Source: an uncultured Eubacteriales bacterium (GTDB lineage Bacteria > Bacillota > Clostridia > Christensenellales > DTU072). From it: DNA of 35,079 nucleotides. Location: the NCBI GenBank assembly GCA_902766965.1, contig CACXFJ010000118.1, positions 1 to 35,079 on the forward strand, in the 5' to 3' direction. A model generated the notes under the pieces. It ran no database searches and was not told where the DNA came from. It saw only the letters and a list, made by a program, of their open reading frames with translations. This document shows, piece after piece, positions 27,319 to 35,063 of the stretch (position 1 is its first letter; each line of letters starts with the position of its first letter). A program made the translations under genes and the position numbers.

Positions 27319-27332
27319 GTAGCTTATGCTAC
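27319..27332. promoter_or_regulatory. Candidate Crp/Fnr (HcpR-type) operator
   Basis: Perfect GTAGC-TTAT-GCTAC palindrome at the predicted +1. Confidence 0.5.
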
Positions 27333-27349
27333 GGAACAGTGAGGATAGA

Positions 27350-28048
27350 ATGAGAATTATTAAGCAAATCAAAAAATGCTCCCTTTTCGACGGTTTTACC
27401 GACGCGGAAATCAACGAGGCTTTCGATTATCTGCAAGCCCGTATAGTAAAATATTCCCGCGGACAGCTCGTCGCTAAAGAGAACGACCTTCCCGAAGAAA
27501 TCTGTATACTTCTCGAAGGTAATTTAGTGGAGTTCACCACGAAAAACAGCGGAAAGAGGGAAGTTATACGTTCTCTTATAGACGGCGAATACTTCGGACT
27601 TTCGCACTGTTATAATCCCGGCAGGAATTTAGGATATTACGTCGTGGCGGCTCTCGACAGCACCGTTTTGTACGTAGCGGCGGACAGCATTTTCGGTTCC
27701 GACATAGGCGACGGGGAGTTTAAGTCAAAACTTATAAAGAATCTTTTGCGCGCGTTGAGCGAAAAAATCGAAGCTCTCGAAGACAACAACGATTACATAA
27801 CCACGAAAGGTATGCGTAATAAGATAGCGAAACTTATTTACGACAAGTATTGCGAACAGAATTCCCTTACGGTAAGTCTCGGTATGAATCGTAACGAAAT
27901 GGCTAAGTACCTTAACGTAAGCCGTCCGAGTATGTCCAGAGAAATGGGCAGAATGAGAGATAACGACGATATGTTCACTTTCCGTAAAGAAATTATAGTA
28001 ATCAAGGATTTGGAAGCCTTGAAAAAACTCGCCGAATCGGCTGAATAG
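27350..28048 (+). CDS. Crp/Fnr-family transcriptional regulator (HcpR-like)
   Basis: cNMP-binding-like domain (LFDGF, LLEG, GEYFG) and HTH RNEMAKYLNVSRPSMSRE; start moved to ATG 27350 behind GAGGA. Confidence 0.88.
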   Translation: MRIIKQIKKCSLFDGFTDAEINEAFDYLQARIVKYSRGQLVAKENDLPEEICILLEGNLVEFTTKNSGKREVIRSLIDGEYFGLSHCYNPGRNLGYYVVAALDSTVLYVAADSIFGSDIGDGEFKSKLIKNLLRALSEKIEALEDNNDYITTKGMRNKIAKLIYDKYCEQNSLTVSLGMNRNEMAKYLNVSRPSMSREMGRMRDNDDMFTFRKEIIVIKDLEALKKLAESAE

Positions 28049-28116: not shown

Positions 28117-29043
28117 ATGAAAATATACGACGACGCAACTCTACTTATCGGTCACACTCCGCTCGTAAGACTGAAAAGACTTGAAAAAAAGTATAATCTT
28201 TGCGGAAAAATCTACGCAAAAGCGGAATTTTTTAACCCCGGTTCTTCCGTAAAGGACAGAGCGGCGTTATTTATGATTAACGACGCCGAAAACAAAGGAC
28301 TTCTCAAAAAAGGCGGAACGGTCGTCGAACCCACCAGCGGCAACACGGGGATAGGTCTTGCCTGGATATGCGCCGTAAGGGGATACAGACTTATATTGAC
28401 CATGCCCGAAACGATGAGCGCGGAAAGGCGGAAACTCGCCAAAGCGTACGGAGCGGAAATAGTCCTTACTCCCGGTGCTCTCGGTATGCAGGGAGCTGTC
28501 GACAAGGCGAAAGAATTAGTAAAAGAACTCGACGCCTTTATGCCCGACCAGTTCGCAAATCCCGCCAACGCGTTAGCGCACGAACGGACCACCGCTATCG
28601 AGATACTCGAAGACACCGACGGCAAGGTAGATTATTTCGTGTCGGCTTTCGGCAGCGGCGGAACGGTCACCGGAGTAGGCAAAGTCTTAAAAAGAGAACT
28701 CCCCGACGTGAAAGTAATCGGTGTAGAACCCGCTTCTTCTCCGCTTTTATCCGAAGGACGTGCAGGAAAACATAAAATTCAGGGGATAGGAGCGAACTTT
28801 ATTCCCTCCCTTCTCGACGTAAAGGTAATGGATAAAGTCGTTACCGTAAGCGACGAAGAAGCCTTCGAATACGCGAGAGATTTGGCAAAAACCGAAGGCC
28901 TTTTGTGCGGTATAAGCAGCGGAGCCGCCCTTTGCGCCGCTTGCAAAATAGCCGCCGACGGCGAGAATAAAGACAAAAATATAGTAGTCGTGTTCCCCGA
29001 CACAGGCGAAAGATATTTAAGTACCGACCTTTATTCGCTGTAA
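28117..29043 (+). CDS. cysK: Cysteine synthase A (O-acetylserine sulfhydrylase)
   Basis: IGHTPLV, NPGSSVKDR (PLP Lys), EPTSGNTG, HKIQGIG, GISSGA, PDTGERYLST. Confidence 0.96.
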   Translation: MKIYDDATLLIGHTPLVRLKRLEKKYNLCGKIYAKAEFFNPGSSVKDRAALFMINDAENKGLLKKGGTVVEPTSGNTGIGLAWICAVRGYRLILTMPETMSAERRKLAKAYGAEIVLTPGALGMQGAVDKAKELVKELDAFMPDQFANPANALAHERTTAIEILEDTDGKVDYFVSAFGSGGTVTGVGKVLKRELPDVKVIGVEPASSPLLSEGRAGKHKIQGIGANFIPSLLDVKVMDKVVTVSDEEAFEYARDLAKTEGLLCGISSGAALCAACKIAADGENKDKNIVVVFPDTGERYLSTDLYSL

Positions 29044-29191: not shown

Positions 29192-30097
29192 TTATTTGAA
29201 TTTCCATTCGGTAGCTTTTCCGTAGTAAATTCCGAGAGGTTCGTAATGAACTTTGCACGCGGCGAAAAGGCTTGTTTTACCGGTGTAAGTTTCGAGATAG
29301 GGGATATGTTGGAAATAGTTGGCGTCGTATTCTCCGTTAGCTACGGCGTCGTTTTGCAAGGTCCAGTCGAGGACGGTGACTTTAAGGTCGTAGCCTTTGT
29401 CGGCAAGGAGAGCCTTGACGGAACCGTTAAGAACTTCCGCATGGGGCGTGTCGGACGCGCAGACTTTTATTTCCGTTCCGTTTCCGTTTACGGTAGCGTC
29501 TTTGGTTTCTCTCAAATCTATCTGGGTGGAAGAGTCGCAGGTCATCGCGCCCAAGTATTTATTTTTGAAGTAGTCGGACACTTCCGCGGACAGAAGCGCG
29601 TTCGTAAGAGCGTCTATTTTCTGTTTGTATGCGGCGTCGTTTGCGTAATCGTTCTTTCTGGCGGCAAGCACGTTGGCTTTGCCGGATACCTGAACGGGGT
29701 CGTTTTCGACTTCGGCTCTCTTATCGGCGGATAGTTTGCCGGTGTAAGCGGTGTTGCAGGGAAGGAGAGCGTAGTCGTAGTCGCCCATGGACGGTACGAG
29801 TAAGTTCTCGGCGACCAAAGTAACTTTGACGGTACCCGCCTTGTTTACCCACGATTTGCTCGCTTCTGATATGTTCAGTTTGCCGTCGTCGGTTACGGGA
29901 TAGTTTTTGCCTTCGGCTTCTTTCGAGATTACGCCTTTCGCTTCGAGAAGTTGGAAAGCGCGGACGGCGTTGGATTCGTCGTCGCAGATTTCGAAAGTAA
30001 TCGCTTTTGAATTTTTACACGCGGCAAGAGCGAACACGGAAAAAACACATACGACGCACAGCGTCAGGACGAGAAGGGCAGAGGTTAGTTTTTTCAT
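29192..30097 (-). CDS. metQ: MetQ/NlpA-family methionine-binding lipoprotein, circularly permuted
   Basis: Lipobox LAAC27; MetQ motifs DESNAVRAFQLL, ASDTPHAEVL, DANYFQHIPYL and VHYEPLGIY all present but in swapped order. Confidence 0.88.
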   Translation of the reverse strand: MKKLTSALLVLTLCVVCVFSVFALAACKNSKAITFEICDDESNAVRAFQLLEAKGVISKEAEGKNYPVTDDGKLNISEASKSWVNKAGTVKVTLVAENLLVPSMGDYDYALLPCNTAYTGKLSADKRAEVENDPVQVSGKANVLAARKNDYANDAAYKQKIDALTNALLSAEVSDYFKNKYLGAMTCDSSTQIDLRETKDATVNGNGTEIKVCASDTPHAEVLNGSVKALLADKGYDLKVTVLDWTLQNDAVANGEYDANYFQHIPYLETYTGKTSLFAACKVHYEPLGIYYGKATEWKFK

Positions 30098-30765
30098 TTT
30101 AATATTCTCCTTTTGTCGATTTTTTTGGCAAGTTTAAGTCCTAATTCCTGTATGAGTTGGACGATGACTACGACTACGGCAATGAGTATCCAAAAGACGG
30201 ATTGTTTTAGATAATCTCCCGTATGTCTGGTGTAGTAGGTGTATATTCCCGAAATAAGTCCGCCCGCGCCTATATTGTACGCAAACGAAGTGTAGCCTAT
30301 TATGCTTACCGCGACTACCGCCGCGCCCGTAACGAGCGACGCTTTGGATTCGGGGAGTAAAACTTTGGTTATTAACTGGAAATCGGTCGCGCCGAGGGAA
30401 CGAACGGCTTCTATTTCGCCGGCGGGTACTTCGGCAAGCGACTGTTCGACCATTCTCGAAACGAAACCGAACGCGCAAACGGTAAGGGGAATAAGGATAG
30501 TGTACCATTCTCCCGTGCCGGTGCCGAACCAGGCTCGCGACCAGGGTATACACAGCACGATTATTATAAGGCAGGGGACGGAACGCAGTATGTTCACGAT
30601 AAGTCCCACTATTGCGTTAAGCCACTTGCAGGGTTTAAGTCCGTTTTTGCTCGTCACGTTGAGAAGAATTCCGCAAGGAAGACCGAAGAGGTAGGCAAGA
30701 GCCGTCGAAAGGACGGTCATAAGCAGAGTTTCTCCGCTAAGTAAAAGAATATCAGCAAAAGTCAT
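30094..30765 (-). CDS. metI: Methionine ABC transporter permease
   Basis: ETLLM, VNILRSVP, SRMVEQSL.EV..GEIEAVRSLGA (EAA loop), IGAGGL. Confidence 0.92.
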   Translation of the reverse strand: MTFADILLLSGETLLMTVLSTALAYLFGLPCGILLNVTSKNGLKPCKWLNAIVGLIVNILRSVPCLIIIVLCIPWSRAWFGTGTGEWYTILIPLTVCAFGFVSRMVEQSLAEVPAGEIEAVRSLGATDFQLITKVLLPESKASLVTGAAVVAVSIIGYTSFAYNIGAGGLISGIYTYYTRHTGDYLKQSVFWILIAVVVVIVQLIQELGLKLAKKIDKRRILK

Positions 30766-31744
30766 CGCTGTCCACCTCCTCGAATTTTACGCCGTTTTCG
30801 TTAAGATAAGCGGAAAGTTTTTCTATATCTTCGTCGTAATACGGCAGTCTGAATATCGTCTGTCCGTAGATTTTATCGTTTATTACTTTCGTCTCCGCGT
30901 AGATTATGGACAGAAGAATATTACATTCCTGTATGATATTCGTTATTATGGGTTTGTCGGTAGACCCGTCGAAAACGAGCTTAACGAACTTCTCTCCCCT
31001 GAAGCCCGCGTTTATTTTGCCGGCATAGATAAGTTTTTTCGCAATAGGCTCTTTGGGTGACAAAAATACGTCTTGCAGATACCCTTGCGTCACTATTTCG
31101 GAGTGGTCTATTATAGCTACCTTGTTGCAGACGGCTTCGATTACCGACATCTGATGAGATATTATTACTATCGTAAGACCGAGTTTTTTGTTGAGTTCTT
31201 TAAGTAATTCCAATATGGATTTCGTCGTTTCCGGGTCGAGAGCGCTCGTCGCTTCGTCGCATAAAAGGATTTTCGGATTAGTCATAAGAGCGCGGGCGAT
31301 AGCCACTCTCTGTTGCTGTCCGCCCGACAGCTGCGACGGATAGGCGTCGAGTTTGTCGCCGAGTCCCACCGTCTCCAAAAGTTCTTTCGCGCGTGCTTTT
31401 CTTTCGGCGTCTTTATGCAGTTCTCCCGCGAGTTCTACGTTTTTCAGTACGCTCCGTTGTTGCAACAGGTTAAACTGTTGAAAAATCATCGACACGCTTT
31501 TGCGTATTTCACGCAGCCTTTTTTTGTCGGCGGAAGTGAGGTCTTCGCCGTCGATGAGAATTTTGCCGCAGGTGGGGCGTTCGAGTAAGTTTATGCACCT
31601 GACGAGCGTAGATTTTCCCGCCCCCGACAGACCGATTATTCCGTAGATATCGCCGTCTTCGATTTTAAGATTGACGTCGTGCAGGGCGACGAATTTTTCT
31701 TTCGCTCCGCCGTAGGCTTTGCTTAGATTCTGTATCTCTATCAT
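30752..31744 (-). CDS. metN: Methionine ABC transporter ATP-binding protein
   Basis: GLSGAGKSTLVRCINLLERPT, YPSQLSGGQQQRV, LLCDEATSALDP, C-terminal NIL-like domain. Confidence 0.95.
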   Translation of the reverse strand: MIEIQNLSKAYGGAKEKFVALHDVNLKIEDGDIYGIIGLSGAGKSTLVRCINLLERPTCGKILIDGEDLTSADKKRLREIRKSVSMIFQQFNLLQQRSVLKNVELAGELHKDAERKARAKELLETVGLGDKLDAYPSQLSGGQQQRVAIARALMTNPKILLCDEATSALDPETTKSILELLKELNKKLGLTIVIISHQMSVIEAVCNKVAIIDHSEIVTQGYLQDVFLSPKEPIAKKLIYAGKINAGFRGEKFVKLVFDGSTDKPIITNIIQECNILLSIIYAETKVINDKIYGQTIFRLPYYDEDIEKLSAYLNENGVKFEEVDSDDFC

Positions 31745-31767
31745 ATAATCTCCTTTACGTTATTCAT

Positions 31768-31799
31768 AAAAAAAGCAGTAAGTCCGTAAACTTACTGCT
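31768..31799 (-). terminator. Leader (attenuator) terminator upstream of metN
   Basis: Minus strand AGCAGTAAGT-TTACGG-ACTTACTGCT, a perfect 10-bp stem running into a 7-T tract that ends 23 nt before the metN ATG. Confidence 0.9.
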
Positions 31800-31827
31800 C
31801 CTTACCGTCTGAAAAAAGGGAATAGGC

Positions 31828-31917
31828 TTACGACTTTTCGGCAACACGAAAATTACACATGACACCCGTCATGCGCATAATCATATCCATAGCCATAGTA
31901 GAACCGAAATTTGTCAT
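31828..31917 (-). CDS. Met-rich leader peptide, 29 aa: MTNFGSTMAMDMIMRMTGVMCNFRVAEKS
   Basis: SD AAGGAG, ATG at 31917, TAA at 31830-31828; 7 Met codons; lies between the promoter and the leader terminator; below the ORF-track length cutoff. Confidence 0.85.
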   Translation of the reverse strand: MTNFGSTMAMDMIMRMTGVMCNFRVAEKS

Positions 31918-31937
31918 AAACTTCTCCTTGCTCTCAA

Positions 31938-31967
31938 AGTGTATCATTAAGAAATACGCCTTGTCAA
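31938..31967 (-). promoter_or_regulatory. Sigma-A promoter of the leader-metNIQ transcript
   Basis: Minus strand TTGACA(31967-31962)-18 bp-TACACT(31943-31938) with TG extension. Confidence 0.7.
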
Positions 31968-32041
31968 CGACTTGACGCCATTAAAAGAAATTTTTACCTA
32001 TTATTTACCGTAATCGTCAAAAAGACTTTTTTCTTTCGGAA

Positions 32042-32287
32042 TCAGTCTAAATCTATGTTTTGCGCAAGAAAAGAATCATCGTCCAAAAATTCGCTCGGCG
32101 TAATGCCGAGACCGTTCGACAACATAATAACGGTTTTTAACGAAACTCCGTTCGTACGCCTTTGCATAATGCTTTTTATCGTCGGGAAAGGAACTCCGCT
32201 GAGCTGGGATAGTCTGTATTGCGAAATTTTTCGTTCTTCGAGATATTTGCACAACCTGTCGGCGACGACGTTATTTATTGTTTTCAT
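32042..32287 (-). CDS. XRE/Cro-family HTH transcriptional regulator (~81 aa)
   Basis: LEERKISQYRLSQLSGVPFPTIKSI...LSNGLGITPSEF; start uncertain (ATG 32287 or 32296). Confidence 0.85.
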   Translation of the reverse strand: MKTINNVVADRLCKYLEERKISQYRLSQLSGVPFPTIKSIMQRRTNGVSLKTVIMLSNGLGITPSEFLDDDSFLAQNIDLD

Positions 32288-32343
32288 ACTTAACATTTTA
32301 ATATACCAAATATATAAGATAGGACGGCGTATCATTCTTTGGG

Positions 32344-32390
32344 TTGACATATCGTCTTATATGTGTTAACATTAGGATTATACATAATCC
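32344..32390 (+). promoter_or_regulatory. Sigma-A promoter of the LRR gene with two overlapping palindromes
   Basis: TTGACA(32344-32349)-17 bp-TAACAT(32367-32372) with TG; ACATAT-N6-ATATGT(32347-32364); GGATTAT-AC-ATAATCC(32375-32390). Confidence 0.6.
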
Positions 32391-32414: not shown

Positions 32415-35063
32415 ATGAAAAAAGGGGTATTTCAAATAGTGACGTTAGCTGTGTTCGTGATACTTCTGAGTGTGACGCTATGCGCGTGTTCGCTACTCGG
32501 TAGCGGTTCCAAAGATAAAGACAAAGACGGAAATGTCGATAAAAAACTATCCGGAATATTCCCGACGACGGAAACGCCTAAATGGAGTTCGGCGTCCGGT
32601 GAAATTTTCGAATACAGAGAAGAATCCGACGCAGATACGGGCAGTCAAAAAATTATAGTCACCGGATTGAAGAAAAAGACGGAAAAACAAGTAGTGATAC
32701 CCGACGGCGTAAACGAGATAGCCGAAAATGCTTTCACCGGGTGTAATAATATTATAAGTCTTGTAATATCGGATACCGTGACGAGTATAGGAAGAGCCGC
32801 ATTCTACGAGTGTACGGGACTCATCGGAGTGTCCGTAGGCAAGAACGTATCGAATATAGGCGACGAAGCCTTCGGCGGATGTTATAAGCTCGTTGAAGTA
32901 TATAATAAGTCGTCCCTCGATATTATGGCAAGAAGCGGAGATAACGGAAATATAGGGTATTACGCGAAGAACGTGTATGACAAAGCGGACCTAACGAGAC
33001 TTGACGTAGACGATAACAATTATATAAGTTATATAGACGGCGACAAAAAGACTCTTATGGGGTACTCCGGCACGCAGACCGAACTTGCTTTGCCCGACGG
33101 AGTGACCGATATCTATCATTACGCATTTGCTTTCAATGGTTCCGTCAAGAAAGTGACTATGAGTAAGGACGTTATTATGACGGGAGACGGTGTGTTTACC
33201 GGTTGCACCGCTCTTAAATACGTAGAGTTCAGCGGAAAAATAAAGAAAATCAGCCGCGGCGCATTCTATGGGTGTACCGCCCTTAACGGCATAGCGATAC
33301 CGGAGACCGTGACGAGCGTCGGCGAATATGCTTTCGCTTTATGTACCTCTCTGACGAGAGTTATTGTCGGAACAAACGTAAAGAAAATAGAGGAAGCCGC
33401 TTTTTATAATTGTTACAAACTCGTAGAGGTATATAACAAATCCTCTCTCGATATCAAGGCGGCAGCCGCAAGCGACAACGAGCCGAGCAGCGCGGTTGGC
33501 GATAACGTAGGTTACGGCGACATAGGAAAATACGTTAAATACGTGTACAAAGAAAGCGGCAAGAGCAGACTTGCTACCGACGAAAAAGGTTTTGTCGTTT
33601 ATGCCGACGGAATAAACAAGATACTCGTCAATTATATCGGAGAAGAAACCGCTCCCACTTTGCCGTCCGAAGTTACGGAAATAAACGATTACGCATTCTA
33701 CGATTGCGATAAGATTACCGAAATAAAGATTCCGAGCGGTGTGACGAGTATCGGGAAATCCGCCTTTTTAGGATGCGACGAACTTACCGAAGTAACCATT
33801 CCTGCCGAAACGACGAGCATAGGAAGAGACGGAATTTTAAGAGATTGTCCTAAATTAGCCAAGGTTTCACTTCCGACGTCGGCTATAAAGGCGTTGAACG
33901 GAGCAAGAGTAAAGAAAGTAGTCGTTACGAGCGGAGAGACGATACCGGAAATGGCATTTTCTGGACTGAAAGAAATGACGGAAATAATTCTCCCAGCCGG
34001 CTTGAAGGTCATAGGCGACGGGGCTTTTTACGGCTGTACCGGCTTGACCGACGTAATTATTCCCGATACCGTGACGGGCATAGGCGACGGGGCTTTTTAC
34101 GACTGTACCGGCTTGACCGACGTAATTATTCCCGATACCGTGATGGTCATAGGCTCCGCTGCGTTCGCAGGCTGTGAAGGAATGAAAGCCTTATATTATA
34201 AAGGGACGGCTGAACAGTGGAATAAAATAACGGTGTCAGGAGAAATCGGCACAGAAGCGAAACGTTACTTCTATTCGGAGACCGCTCCGACTAAAGAAGG
34301 AAATTATTGGCGCTACTTCGACGGTAAAGTTTTCGTTTGGGAAACGGTACACATTCATTCTTTCGGCGAATGGACGGAGAAGACGCCCGCTACCTGCGTG
34401 ACGGATAAAGTAGAACGCAGAGAGTGTCTCTCTTGCGGCGTGGAGCAGACGAGAACGGTAGAAAAAACCGCGTTGGGACACGAGTTGGAACGACACGAAG
34501 CGCAAGTGCCCACTTGCACCGAAGTAGGGTGGGACGAGTATGAAACCTGTACCCGTGGCGGGTGTGACTATACTACAAGAAAAGAAAAACCGGCATTGGG
34601 ACACGACTACGATGAGAACGATATTTGCAGAAGATGTAGAGAAGAAAAACAAACGGACGTGAGCAAGTTTACGTTTGAATACGATGCAGAACAAGGCGGA
34701 TATACCATTATAGGATATGCCGGAGAAGAAGCAGATGTAATTATTCCCAAAAAGTACAATGACGGAACGAATGGCGTAAAGGATGTCAAAGCGATAGCTA
34801 ATCATGTTTTCAATAACAAAGTTGGACTAATCAGTGTAAAAATTCTTGACAACGTGACGAGTATCGGTGCAAATGCGTTCAGTGGTTGCGTCAGTCTTAT
34901 AGACGTTCACTATAACGGAACGAAAGAACAATGGAACGAAATAACGAAAGCCGAAGATATAGGATTTAACGACGGAGTTACGAGGACGATTCATTGCACC
35001 GACGGAACTATAGTAATAGGCGACGTTAGCGGTGGCGGAAGCGAAGAAGCGGTAGGCGAATAA
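32415..35063 (+). CDS. BspA-like leucine-rich-repeat (LRR_5/TpLRR) surface lipoprotein with Cys/His-rich modules
   Basis: Signal peptide with lipobox-like LCAC; many IPxxVTxIGxxAFxxCxxL repeats; ATC..CxxC..ALGH modules; SD GGAGG. Confidence 0.9.
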   Translation: MKKGVFQIVTLAVFVILLSVTLCACSLLGSGSKDKDKDGNVDKKLSGIFPTTETPKWSSASGEIFEYREESDADTGSQKIIVTGLKKKTEKQVVIPDGVNEIAENAFTGCNNIISLVISDTVTSIGRAAFYECTGLIGVSVGKNVSNIGDEAFGGCYKLVEVYNKSSLDIMARSGDNGNIGYYAKNVYDKADLTRLDVDDNNYISYIDGDKKTLMGYSGTQTELALPDGVTDIYHYAFAFNGSVKKVTMSKDVIMTGDGVFTGCTALKYVEFSGKIKKISRGAFYGCTALNGIAIPETVTSVGEYAFALCTSLTRVIVGTNVKKIEEAAFYNCYKLVEVYNKSSLDIKAAAASDNEPSSAVGDNVGYGDIGKYVKYVYKESGKSRLATDEKGFVVYADGINKILVNYIGEETAPTLPSEVTEINDYAFYDCDKITEIKIPSGVTSIGKSAFLGCDELTEVTIPAETTSIGRDGILRDCPKLAKVSLPTSAIKALNGARVKKVVVTSGETIPEMAFSGLKEMTEIILPAGLKVIGDGAFYGCTGLTDVIIPDTVTGIGDGAFYDCTGLTDVIIPDTVMVIGSAAFAGCEGMKALYYKGTAEQWNKITVSGEIGTEAKRYFYSETAPTKEGNYWRYFDGKVFVWETVHIHSFGEWTEKTPATCVTDKVERRECLSCGVEQTRTVEKTALGHELERHEAQVPTCTEVGWDEYETCTRGGCDYTTRKEKPALGHDYDENDICRRCREEKQTDVSKFTFEYDAEQGGYTIIGYAGEEADVIIPKKYNDGTNGVKDVKAIANHVFNNKVGLISVKILDNVTSIGANAFSGCVSLIDVHYNGTKEQWNEITKAEDIGFNDGVTRTIHCTDGTIVIGDVSGGGSEEAVGE
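34010..34154 (+). repeat. Intragenic 69-bp tandem repeat (one LRR unit), 2 copies plus a partial third
   Basis: Units start at 34010 and 34079 and are 66/69 nt identical; a third CATAGGC starts at 34148. Confidence 0.92.

What the first reader, a model, noticed from the sequence alone, without database searches (positions are those of the whole stretch)
31745..31967. Methionine-sensing leader-peptide attenuator upstream of metNIQ
Seen on the minus strand, in order: a promoter (TTGACA-18-TACACT); SD AAGGAG; a 29-codon ORF MTNFGSTMAMDMIMRMTGVMCNFRVAEKS with 7 Met codons, five in strict alternation (M-A-M-D-M-I-M-R-M); a 28-nt spacer; a perfect 10-bp terminator with a U7 tract; then the metN SD and ATG. 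The spacer holds CUAUUCCCUU, which can pair imperfectly with AAGGAGCAG overlapping the terminator 5' arm. That segment lies directly after the leader stop, so a ribosome reaching the stop would mask it. A further hairpin UUUUCG/CGAAAA (31852-31835) sits at the end of the leader ORF. Established: this is the layout of the his/trp/thr/leu/ilv/phe attenuators, whereas Firmicute met genes are typically controlled by SAM (S-box) riboswitches, Met T-boxes or LysR-type regulators. I see no S-box or T-box here. Inference: ribosome stalling on AUG codons when Met-tRNA is scarce permits antitermination. I know of no characterised Met leader-peptide attenuator, but I cannot check the literature.
Basis: partly seen in the sequence, partly recalled or inferred. 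Interest (0 to 1): 0.95.

Follow-up and report, generated by a model that had tools for sequence, protein, structure and literature searches.

The report
Methionine-codon leader peptide attenuator before metNIQ
A tiny upstream reading frame packed with methionine codons, followed by a transcription stop signal, sits in front of a methionine-import operon and most likely lets the cell switch the importer on when charged methionine tRNA runs low, a kind of control well known for other amino acids but not yet tested for methionine.

Summary
On the minus strand lie a promoter, a Shine-Dalgarno site (SD), a 29-codon ORF with 7 Met codons (31917-31828), a perfect 10-bp terminator with U7, then metN-metI-metQ. 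Rfam gives no SAM, T-box or other credible hit.

Comparative data support a leader-peptide attenuator:
- Of 35 species-representative loci with MetN at least 65% identical, 31 carry a 24-32-codon upstream ORF with a Met-codon cluster and a terminator-like hairpin.
- Three of the 35 instead carry a T-box with AUG at the specifier position.
- Among 1208 upstream regions in the window's own genome, this ORF is the single outlier for Met codons.
- The terminator and a hairpin inside the Met cluster covary.
- A sister leader type has a covarying antiterminator between the ORF and the terminator 5' arm.

The weak point is the focal antiterminator. A stop-codon-spanning strand can pair with the terminator 5' arm, but this is only modestly supported and is not conserved in register.

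Prior art is thin. A Streptomyces lividans reannotation paper names an untested 'metL' leader before metNIQ. My searches found no characterised Met attenuator.

Verdict: a real feature, and a new variant (new amino-acid specificity) of a known mechanism.

The parts
31938..31967 (-). Sigma-70-type promoter: -35 TTGACA, 18-nt spacer, extended -10 TG-n-TACACT. The predicted transcript start is around 31931.
   Evidence: 10 of 12 matches, TG present. The -35 and -10 are invariant in the three genus copies. The start site is inferred, not measured.
31924..31929 (-). Shine-Dalgarno AAGGAG of the leader ORF, 6 nt before the ATG.
   Evidence: Invariant in G000, G005 and G011. Purine-rich SD scores are present before 40 of 42 leader ORFs examined.
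31828..31917 (-). Leader ORF of 29 codons plus stop TAA. Met codons are at 1, 8, 10, 12, 14, 16 and 20, with one Cys codon at 21.
   Evidence: The reading frame and all 7 Met codons are kept in G005 and G011, while 9 other codons change.
31870..31896 (-). Regulatory Met-codon cluster (codons 8-16, M-x-M-x-M-x-M-x-M). This is the proposed ribosome stalling zone.
   Evidence: Met clusters recur in 40 distinct related leaders: 175 of 1112 internal codons are Met, against 2.1% in the genome's long ORFs.
31854..31877 (-). Hairpin A. It is formed by the distal Met codons (codons 14-21) and is followed by a U-rich run. It is a candidate RNA polymerase pause or 1:2-type hairpin.
   Evidence: 10 pairs. 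Across 12 type I leaders 85.8% of cells are paired and 3 pairs changed on both sides; slid controls gave 31-53%. The pause role is inferred.
31835..31852 (-). Small hairpin UUUUCG/CGAAAA at the end of the ORF.
   Evidence: It is predicted in masked folds and is invariant in the three genus copies. It is not obviously conserved in other subgroups.
31816..31832 (-). Region 2, the putative antiterminator 5' strand. It spans the leader stop codon and the pyrimidine-rich spacer. It can also pair with the leader SD and start region.
   Evidence: a 16-pair helix of about -10.7 kcal/mol with the terminator 5' arm and loop. Alternative duplex with the SD and start region: -14.1 kcal/mol. A ribosome at the stop codon would cover it. 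Support is modest.
31785..31803 (-). Region 3: AAGGAG plus the terminator 5' arm and loop. It is the partner of region 2 in the antiterminated fold and a 10-nt near-repeat of the leader SD region.
   Evidence: The direct repeat 31794-31803 / 31920-31929 is 90% identical.
31767..31799 (-). Intrinsic terminator: 10-bp perfect stem, 6-nt loop, U7.
   Evidence: I1. The terminator is predicted with P=0.996 at equilibrium. Across 12 type I leaders 78.9% of cells are paired and 5 pairs changed on both sides.
30752..31744 (-). metN, the methionine ABC transporter ATPase. It is the first gene controlled by the leader.
   Evidence: NCBIfam TIGR02314 ABC_MetN, E 7e-98, full length but below the equivalog cut-off.
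30094..30765 (-). metI, the permease.
   Evidence: NCBIfam NF008049 MetI, E 1.6e-43.
29192..30097 (-). metQ-like substrate-binding lipoprotein (NlpA family).
   Evidence: Pfam PF03180 Lipoprotein_9, E 3.9e-27, above the cut-off. NCBIfam hits are weak.

Best explanation
This is a ribosome-mediated (leader-peptide) transcription attenuator. It reads the supply of charged elongator tRNA-Met and controls the metN-metI-metQ import operon.

Proposed sequence of events:
1. Transcription starts about 14 nt before the leader ATG.
2. A ribosome translates the 29-codon leader while RNA polymerase moves toward the terminator.
3. When Met-tRNA is plentiful, the ribosome reaches the stop codon. There it covers the stop-proximal strand (31832-31816), so the terminator (31799-31767) folds and transcription ends before metN.
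4. When Met-tRNA is scarce, ribosomes stall on the alternating AUG codons 8-16. The stop-proximal strand stays free, pairs with the terminator 5' arm and loop, and polymerase reads through into metNIQ.
5. Without any translation, that same strand can be held by the leader's own SD and start region, so the default state is termination.

Shown: the parts; the conservation of the ORF, the Met cluster and the terminator; and the gene context.

Inferred: translation of the ORF, stalling, and the identity of the antiterminator.
For: 1. Anatomy confirmed.

2. No known riboswitch or T-box in the leader. The genome has 0 SAM-I hits and 3 T-boxes, all elsewhere.

3. Within the genus, the leader DNA is found in exactly the 3 of 28 genomes that also hold this metN at 94% identity or more. 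In those three copies all 7 Met codons are invariant, 9 other codons change, and the frame is kept. In one copy the terminator changes in a compensatory way. An RNA-library contig variant changes three codons, one of them Thr17 to Met.

4. Wider relatives: of 35 genome-contig loci with MetN at 65-83% identity, 31 have a short ORF with at least 2 internal in-frame Met codons plus a terminator-like hairpin. One has a single Met, and 3 have a T-box instead. Seven more distant loci (MetN 51-60%) have unrelated Met- or Met/Cys-rich upstream ORFs with terminators. They include a cultured Herbinix hemicellulosilytica strain.

5. In 40 distinct leaders, internal ATG triplets fall 175 in frame, 7 in frame +1 and 1 in frame +2. 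Met makes up 15.7% of codons against 2.1% genome-wide. The ORFs were picked to maximise Met, so this is biased. The focal ORF alone gives 6, 0 and 0.

6. In the own-genome control, the leader is the single outlier among 1208 upstream regions.

7. Orthologous metN genes (71-72% identity) carry T-boxes with AUG at the specifier position. The same operon is therefore elsewhere controlled by tRNA-Met charging.

8. Structure: the terminator and hairpin A are 81.7% paired, against 31-53% in slid controls. In the sister type II leaders, a long-range helix between the ORF segment just after the Met cluster and the terminator 5' arm is 88.4% paired in 24 sequences. Five of its 9 pairs changed on both sides, and slid controls gave 16-51%.

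9. In 9 of 11 type I leaders, the terminator 5' arm is predicted to pair with the 22 nt around the stop codon more than in the shuffle mean. Summed over five subgroup representatives the count is 43 against 20.3, P=0.003.

10. The genome (96% complete) shows no metE or metH but does have metK. Import is therefore probably its main methionine source.
Against: - No direct evidence of translation, stalling, termination or a response to methionine.
- The focal antiterminator is weak. Its energy is not exceptional against shuffles: z = -1.6, with 24 of 300 shuffles as good. Across 11 leaders z ranges from -2.05 to +0.8.
- The G000-register antiterminator is not conserved in the 12-sequence alignment: 59.4% paired against 56.5% in shuffles, reached by 37 of 500 shuffles.
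- Pairing of the 5' UTR and start region with the stop region is only weakly supported: 54.7% against 50.2%.
- Equilibrium folding always gives the terminator.
- A single-footprint MFE model does not reproduce a consistent on/off logic across the family.
- For the test, two of my five representatives were the best of their subgroup.
- RNA-library contigs say nothing about transcript ends or levels.
- Methionine starvation should also limit initiator tRNA charging and hence leader translation itself.
- The loci are relatives of one another, so the counts are not independent.
Confidence: 0.72

Rival explanations
1. The leader is an undescribed metabolite-binding riboswitch (for SAM, methionine or a related compound) with a terminator expression platform. 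The open reading frame would be incidental.
For: The whole leader folds strongly (z = -5.6) into a long closed stem. Its 3' strand could alternatively pair with the terminator 5' arm, which is S-box-like logic. Hairpin A is conserved with compatible changes. Type II leaders have a highly conserved nucleotide core.
Against: - There is no Rfam hit.
- The only feature shared by sequence-unrelated leaders (type I, type II, Herbinix, Agathobaculum and others) is an SD-preceded short ORF with clustered in-frame ATG codons.
- The outer stem is broken without compensation in G011 (by eye) and is only weakly supported overall.
- Indels inside the aligned ORF come in threes.
- The ORF length stays within 22-37 codons as my script called them (24-32 once starts that look over-extended are discounted by eye).
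Confidence: 0.08
2. The leader is translated, but the signal is a ligand-dependent arrest by the nascent peptide (in the style of TnaC or SpeFL, for example sensing methionine or SAM in the exit tunnel) rather than hungry AUG codons.
For: Type II leaders keep an amino-acid-like motif after the Met cluster (Met-Arg-Met-Leu-x-Ser-Arg-Ala) across 24 sequences. Met and Cys co-occur in many leaders.
Against: - In the focal type I group the peptide sequence drifts freely apart from the Met codons.
- The conserved Ser-Arg-Ala codons of type II coincide with an RNA strand that covaries with the terminator arm, which explains their conservation at the RNA level.
- For an importer, arrest caused by abundant ligand would give the wrong regulatory sign, unless arrest promoted termination.
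Confidence: 0.08
3. The small ORF encodes a functional Met/Cys-rich micropeptide (or is a chance ORF), and the hairpin is simply a leaky terminator or an RNA-stability element with no sensing role.
For: Cys is enriched as well as Met (3.7% against 1.4%), which could suggest a metal- or redox-related peptide. There are no expression data.
Against: - The peptide sequence is not conserved outside the Met positions.
- The ORF is always placed between a promoter and a terminator directly upstream of metN.
- It is replaced by a Met T-box in orthologous loci.
- Among 1208 upstream regions of the genome it is the only one of its kind.
Confidence: 0.05

Closest known systems
Classical leader-peptide transcription attenuators of amino-acid operons (trp, his, leu, thr, ilv, phe; Proteobacteria, some Actinobacteria)
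   Same: A short SD-preceded ORF with a cluster of codons for the regulating amino acid, followed by an intrinsic terminator, ahead of an operon for that amino acid. Alternative RNA pairings depend on the position of the ribosome. (Established knowledge. PMC3766115, passages read, lists His, Leu, Thr and Trp in Rfam, plus Ile/Val and Phe.)
   Different: - The regulatory codon is AUG, a specificity absent from that list.
- The controlled operon is a transporter, not a biosynthetic pathway.
- The host is an uncultured Clostridia lineage.
- The putative antiterminator strand spans the leader stop codon. The competing strand is the leader's own SD and start region rather than the regulatory-codon region.
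- The antiterminator is not demonstrated.
'metL' leader peptide upstream of metNIQ in Streptomyces lividans TK24 (PMC8079986; passages read)
   Same: A 29-residue upstream peptide before metN of a MetNIQ importer, annotated by the authors as methionine-dependent. Its Met and Cys codons cluster near the C-terminal end, like several leaders found here.
   Different: - It is leaderless.
- It has only two internal Met codons.
- The authors state that a typical Rho-independent terminator is missing and that termination is unclear.
- It is in a different phylum.
- It has not been functionally tested.
- I did not test sequence relatedness to the present leader. The paper's supplements were not seen.
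Polycysteine leaderless short-ORF attenuators of mycobacteria (bioRxiv 10.1101/834739; search listing and start of abstract only)
   Same: Short upstream ORFs rich in one sulfur amino acid's codons that tune downstream operon expression according to that amino acid's supply.
   Different: - They use Cys, not Met.
- They are leaderless.
- They are reported as attenuators of operonic expression. I did not read the mechanism.
- They are actinobacterial.
Met-specific T-box leaders (Rfam RF00230)
   Same: They occupy the same place, upstream of orthologous metN in sister lineages (L170, L173, L174 at 71-72% MetN identity; also L182, L189), with AUG at the specifier position. They also read tRNA-Met charging and act through a terminator.
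   Different: A T-box binds uncharged tRNA directly and needs no translation. The focal leader has no T-box match.
SAM-I (S-box) riboswitch upstream of met transporter genes in Bacillota
   Same: A terminator-based leader before metN. A more distant relative (G025, MetN 49%) has an S-box-looking leader (by eye only).
   Different: It senses SAM through a conserved aptamer. There is no SAM-I hit in the window or in the whole genome.

Membership tests
Ribosome-mediated leader-peptide transcription attenuator | A short ORF with its own SD and start codon in the 5' leader, just downstream of the promoter. | tested here: met
   Conserved in 3 of 3 genus copies and in 42 related loci chosen for having an upstream ORF.
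Ribosome-mediated leader-peptide transcription attenuator | A cluster of codons for the amino acid that the downstream operon supplies. | tested here: met
   7 of 29 codons are AUG. The ORF is the single outlier among 1208 upstream regions. Met clusters appear in 40 distinct related leaders. The operon is metN-metI-metQ.
Ribosome-mediated leader-peptide transcription attenuator | An intrinsic terminator between the leader ORF and the first structural gene. | tested here: met
   (10-bp perfect stem, then U7). Compensatory changes across 12 leaders.
Ribosome-mediated leader-peptide transcription attenuator | A mutually exclusive antiterminator whose formation depends on where the ribosome sits. 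| tested here: inconclusive
   A stop-codon-spanning helix with the terminator 5' arm is predicted, and the stop-proximal placement is enriched. However, its energy is not exceptional, it is not conserved in register, and simple footprint modelling is inconsistent. A covarying antiterminator does exist in the sister type II leaders.
Ribosome-mediated leader-peptide transcription attenuator | The leader is translated, and read-through rises when the cognate charged tRNA is scarce. | not testable with these tools
   Only contigs from RNA libraries were available. They cannot show transcript ends or levels.
SAM riboswitches (SAM-I/S-box and other Rfam SAM classes) | A match to the aptamer covariance model. 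| tested here: not met
   No hit at gathering score in the window. No SAM family among hits up to E=10 in 31600-32100. 0 SAM-I hits in the genome.
T-box leader (RF00230) | A match to the T-box model (specifier loop, T-box sequence, antiterminator). | tested here: not met
   No hit in the window. The three T-boxes of the genome lie on other contigs.

The most novel reading that the evidence does not exclude
Methionine has its own widespread family of leader-peptide attenuators, overlooked because it lives mostly in uncultured gut Clostridia (Christensenellaceae-like lineages, with independent-looking versions in Herbinix, Agathobaculum and others).

The family would come in at least two architectures. 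In one, the antiterminator strand lies over the leader stop codon. In the other, it lies just after the Met cluster and covaries with the terminator arm.

It swaps evolutionarily with Met T-boxes at the same metN operon. Because Cys codons are interleaved with the Met codons in many members, it may read both sulfur amino acids at once.
Probability: 0.5. Interest if true: 0.75.

Novelty: new variant of a known kind. Interest (0 to 1): 0.62.

Why it matters
Leader-peptide attenuation is a textbook mechanism. The passages I read (PMC3766115) list its specificities as His, Leu, Thr, Trp, Ile/Val and Phe, and I recall no other characterised amino-acid specificity.

Methionine control in Gram-positive bacteria is usually attributed to S-box riboswitches, T-boxes or protein regulators. 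A methionine-codon attenuator would matter for several reasons:
- It adds a new specificity to the list.
- It shows that the same operon is switched between T-box and leader-peptide control in sister lineages, and both of these read tRNA-Met charging.
- It raises a mechanistic question: how does a leader that needs Met to initiate still report Met starvation?
- It gives an annotation rule for methionine importers in poorly known gut Clostridia that appear to be methionine auxotrophs.

A cultured carrier, Herbinix hemicellulosilytica, makes it testable.

Tried and rejected
**Known RNA families.** Rfam at a permissive threshold on 31600-32100 gave only four sub-threshold hits (Plastid-psbA-2, istR, Mahella-1, rne5; 10-17 bits against cut-offs of 45-180). 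I read these as chance.

**Folding models.**
- Equilibrium folding with ribosome masks always kept the terminator (P=0.996), so it cannot show switching.
- Single-footprint MFE modelling of truncated transcripts gave no consistent logic across 40 leaders.
- The G000-derived antiterminator, mapped on the 12-sequence alignment, was not better than controls.
- The antiterminator energies were not exceptional against shuffles.
- I looked for pairing between the 3' arm of hairpin A and the terminator 5' arm, which is the classical 2:3 arrangement. By eye I found at most about 5 pairs, and I dropped the idea.

**RNA libraries.** Only Logan contigs were available. A 3.1-kb contig in X1/X2 spans the leader and metN. 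A 250-nt contig in X3 covers 31726-31975. Depths are per contig and DNA carry-over is possible, so I draw nothing about transcript ends, attenuation or habitat. I used only the three letter differences in the X1/X2 contig.

**Other Met-rich small ORF.** The second one in the genome (contig C83, around 19750) lies inside a 1165-codon ORF in another frame, so it is chance.

**Type II logic.** I did not resolve which ribosome position favours the type II antiterminator.

**Literature.** Eight searches found no characterised methionine leader-peptide attenuator. The library lacks most subscription journals, and supplements were closed, so absence from print is not proven.

- I did not use the large protein searches, structure prediction or complex prediction, because the question concerns RNA and a peptide too short for them.
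Full report
**1. The observation**

- A promoter, TTGACA-18-TACACT, has 10 of 12 consensus matches and a TG upstream of the -10.
- The SD AAGGAG lies at 31929-31924.
- A 29-codon ORF runs from ATG 31917 to stop TAA 31830-31828. Its Met codons are at 1, 8, 10, 12, 14, 16 and 20.
- A 28-nt spacer follows, then a perfect 10-bp inverted repeat with a 6-nt loop (31799-31790 / 31783-31774) and seven T.
- Then come the metN SD and ATG at 31744.

The ORF list shows the same frame open from an ATG at 31947. That ATG lies inside the -10 hexamer and so is probably not transcribed.

The downstream genes are:
- metN (TIGR02314, E 7e-98, full length);
- metI (NF008049, E 1.6e-43);
- an NlpA/MetQ-family lipoprotein (PF03180, E 3.9e-27).

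**2. Is it chance?**

I took the best small ORF (12-45 codons) in the 260 nt upstream of 1208 crude genes of the same genome (1274 called; 66 lay too near a contig end). Internal Met counts were 0:786, 1:321, 2:79, 3:18, 4:2, 5:1 and 7:1. The 7 is this leader. The 4s and the 5 look like the ends of upstream genes.

A window scan of the whole genome found one other small ORF with four Met codons. It lies inside a 1165-codon ORF in another frame.

All six internal ATG triplets of the focal ORF are in frame.

**3. Not a known RNA element**

- Rfam 15 finds nothing at gathering score in the whole window.
- At E up to 10 in 31600-32100 it finds only four weak hits, far below their cut-offs.
- The genome has no SAM-I match. 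It has three T-boxes, all on other contigs.

**4. Close relatives**

In the genus, 3 of 28 genomes (G000, G005, G011) carry the leader DNA at 100, 92 and 84% identity. The same three are the only ones with this metN at 94% identity or more.

In the three-way alignment:
- the promoter hexamers, SD, all seven Met codons, the end of the ORF and the spacer are invariant;
- nine other codons change, mostly non-synonymously, and one change adds a Met;
- the frame is kept;
- G011 changes the terminator stem on both sides.

The gene upstream differs in G005, so the leader travels with metN.

A contig from two RNA libraries of one sample differs at three leader positions. I translate these as D11N, T17M and V25I.

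**5. Wider relatives**

MetN was used to fetch 80 metagenome loci and 80 species-representative loci with organism titles. The two sets overlap in part.

For the 35 species loci at 65-83% MetN identity (L144-L178), whose titles are mostly Christensenellaceae, Christensenella sp. or Clostridia MAGs:
- 31 have an SD-preceded short ORF, which I read as 24-32 codons once script-called starts that look over-extended are discounted, with at least two internal in-frame Met codons, followed 18-67 nt later by a terminator-like hairpin (L155 by eye);
- 1 (L178) has one internal Met;
- 3 (L170, L173, L174) have a T-box at Rfam gathering score, with AUG where I recall the specifier codon to lie.

For the 45 loci below 65%:
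- seven have Met-rich upstream ORFs with terminators: L190, L191, L199 (Agathobaculum), L201 (Herbinix hemicellulosilytica T3/55T), L202, L212 and L214;
- the Herbinix leader alternates Met and Cys;
- at least 14 show a T-box by motif or by Rfam;
- I did not classify the rest.

None of the 13 upstream-ORF leaders that I scanned with Rfam had a cis-regulatory hit.

I selected 42 loci because they showed such an ORF, which gave 40 distinct ORFs. In these:
- internal ATG triplets fall 175, 7 and 1 in frames 0, +1 and +2 (the ORF choice maximised Met, so this is biased);
- Met is 175 of 1112 internal codons (15.7%) and Cys is 41 (3.7%), against 2.1% and 1.4% in long ORFs of the genome.

**6. Two architectures**

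*Type I* comprises the focal leader and 11 others aligned. It has 6-8 Met codons.
- A hairpin built from the distal Met codons and the terminator are both conserved. Together they are 81.7% paired, against 31-53% in slid controls. The hairpin alone is 85.8% paired and the terminator 78.9%, with 3 and 5 pairs changed on both sides.

*Type II* comprises 24 sequences aligned. It has a conserved core with 2-4 clustered Met codons.
- Directly after the cluster lies a strand that can pair locally or with the terminator 5' arm.
- The long-range helix is 88.4% paired, with 5 of 9 pairs changed on both sides and slid controls at 16-51%. One of its columns pairs with the terminator arm but not with the local partner.

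So a covarying, ORF-embedded antiterminator exists in the sister group.

**7. The focal switch**

When the transcript is cut before the terminator 3' arm and the upstream RNA is masked, the strand 31832-31816 pairs with 31803-31785. The second is AAGGAG, the terminator 5' arm and the loop. The helix has 16 pairs at about -10.7 kcal/mol.
- A ribosome with the stop codon in its A site would cover that strand. With that mask the helix is lost.
- The same strand can instead pair with the leader's SD and start region (-14.1 kcal/mol). That is the minimum-energy fold of the free leader.
- The SD region and the terminator flank are a 10-nt near-repeat.

This gives a 1:2 / 2:3 / 3:4 scheme.

The support is only modest:
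- z = -1.6 against shuffles for the focal helix, with a range of -2.05 to +0.8 over 11 leaders;
- no conservation in register;
- weak support for the 1:2 pairing;
- no consistent behaviour in a single-footprint model.

In its favour, in 9 of 11 type I leaders the terminator 5' arm pairs with the 22 nt around the stop codon more than the shuffle mean. Over five subgroup representatives the sum is 43 against 20.3, P=0.003. Two of those representatives were the best of their subgroup; using the others would give about 34.

**8. Physiology**

The genome (96% complete) shows no metE or metH match but does have metK. It is probably a methionine auxotroph for which this importer matters. Absence from a draft genome is not proof.

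**9. What is known**

- A review-type comparative paper lists amino-acid attenuators for His, Leu, Thr and Trp, and outside Rfam for Ile/Val and Phe (PMC3766115, passages).
- A 2005 actinobacterial survey found no conserved RNA element before methionine operons (PMC1262725, passages).
- The S. lividans TK24 reannotation names a 29-residue leaderless 'metL' peptide before metNIQ. It says several hairpins follow but a typical Rho-independent terminator is missing. No test is reported in the passages I read (PMC8079986). Its supplements were not available.
- Polycysteine upstream-ORF attenuators are described for mycobacteria (10.1101/834739, listing only).
- Eight full-text searches found no characterised methionine leader-peptide attenuator.

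**10. Verdict**

The feature is real. It is best read as a methionine-codon leader-peptide attenuator of metNIQ and as one member of a sizeable, mostly uncultured clostridial family.

It works like the classical attenuators. Four of the five defining features that I could test are met. The antiterminator remains inconclusive for this member. Translation and the response to methionine are untestable here.

It is a new variant of a known kind rather than a new kind, and an untested Streptomyces annotation anticipates the idea.

Noticed in passing
L146-L149, L156-L169, L171-L172, L175-L178, L190-L191 (alignment A3): A second leader architecture ('type II') occurs before orthologous metN. It has a conserved core with 2-4 clustered Met codons. 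Four related segments (A, B, C, D) follow, in which A resembles D and B resembles C. The long-range A:C helix covaries (88.4% paired). I did not resolve its ribosome logic.
   Followed up: partly
L170:1216-1458, L173:1203-1442, L174:1175-1416, L182:1216-1455, L189:1195-1440: T-box leaders with AUG at the apparent specifier position sit before metN genes 61-72% identical to the window's. This suggests evolutionary swapping between T-box and upstream-ORF control of the same operon.
   Followed up: partly
L201:1211-1403 (Herbinix hemicellulosilytica T3/55T) and L202, L199, L212, L214: Sequence-unrelated Met- or Met/Cys-rich upstream ORFs with terminators lie before more distant metN genes in other Clostridia orders. 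The Herbinix ORF alternates Met and Cys with a period of three codons. Cys codons are enriched in leaders overall (3.7% against 1.4%).
   Followed up: partly
whole genome G000: There is no match to the metE or metH models, while metK is present, in a 96%-complete draft. There is no SAM-I riboswitch. The organism may be a methionine auxotroph. Only 3 of 28 genomes of the genus carry this metNIQ.
   Followed up: partly
window 28117-29043 (+) and 27326-28048 (+): Just beyond the metQ-like gene, on the opposite strand, lie a cysteine synthase A gene (TIGR01139, E 1.8e-132) and a Crp/Fnr-type regulator gene. This makes a small sulfur amino-acid neighbourhood.
   Followed up: no
window 32042-32350 (-): A 102-codon Cro/C1-type HTH protein gene lies directly upstream of the leader promoter. 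It is also present upstream in G011 but not in G005, so it is probably not part of the unit.
   Followed up: partly
window 32415-35063 (+): An 882-codon ORF has leucine-rich-repeat adhesin-like matches (HupY/LrrG model, far below its cut-off). It is divergently oriented from the HTH gene.
   Followed up: no
window 31845, 31868, 31887: A contig found in two RNA libraries of one animal-gut sample carries three differences in the leader. Read on the minus strand they change codons 25, 17 and 11. One of them creates an extra Met codon, the same change seen in G005.
   Followed up: partly
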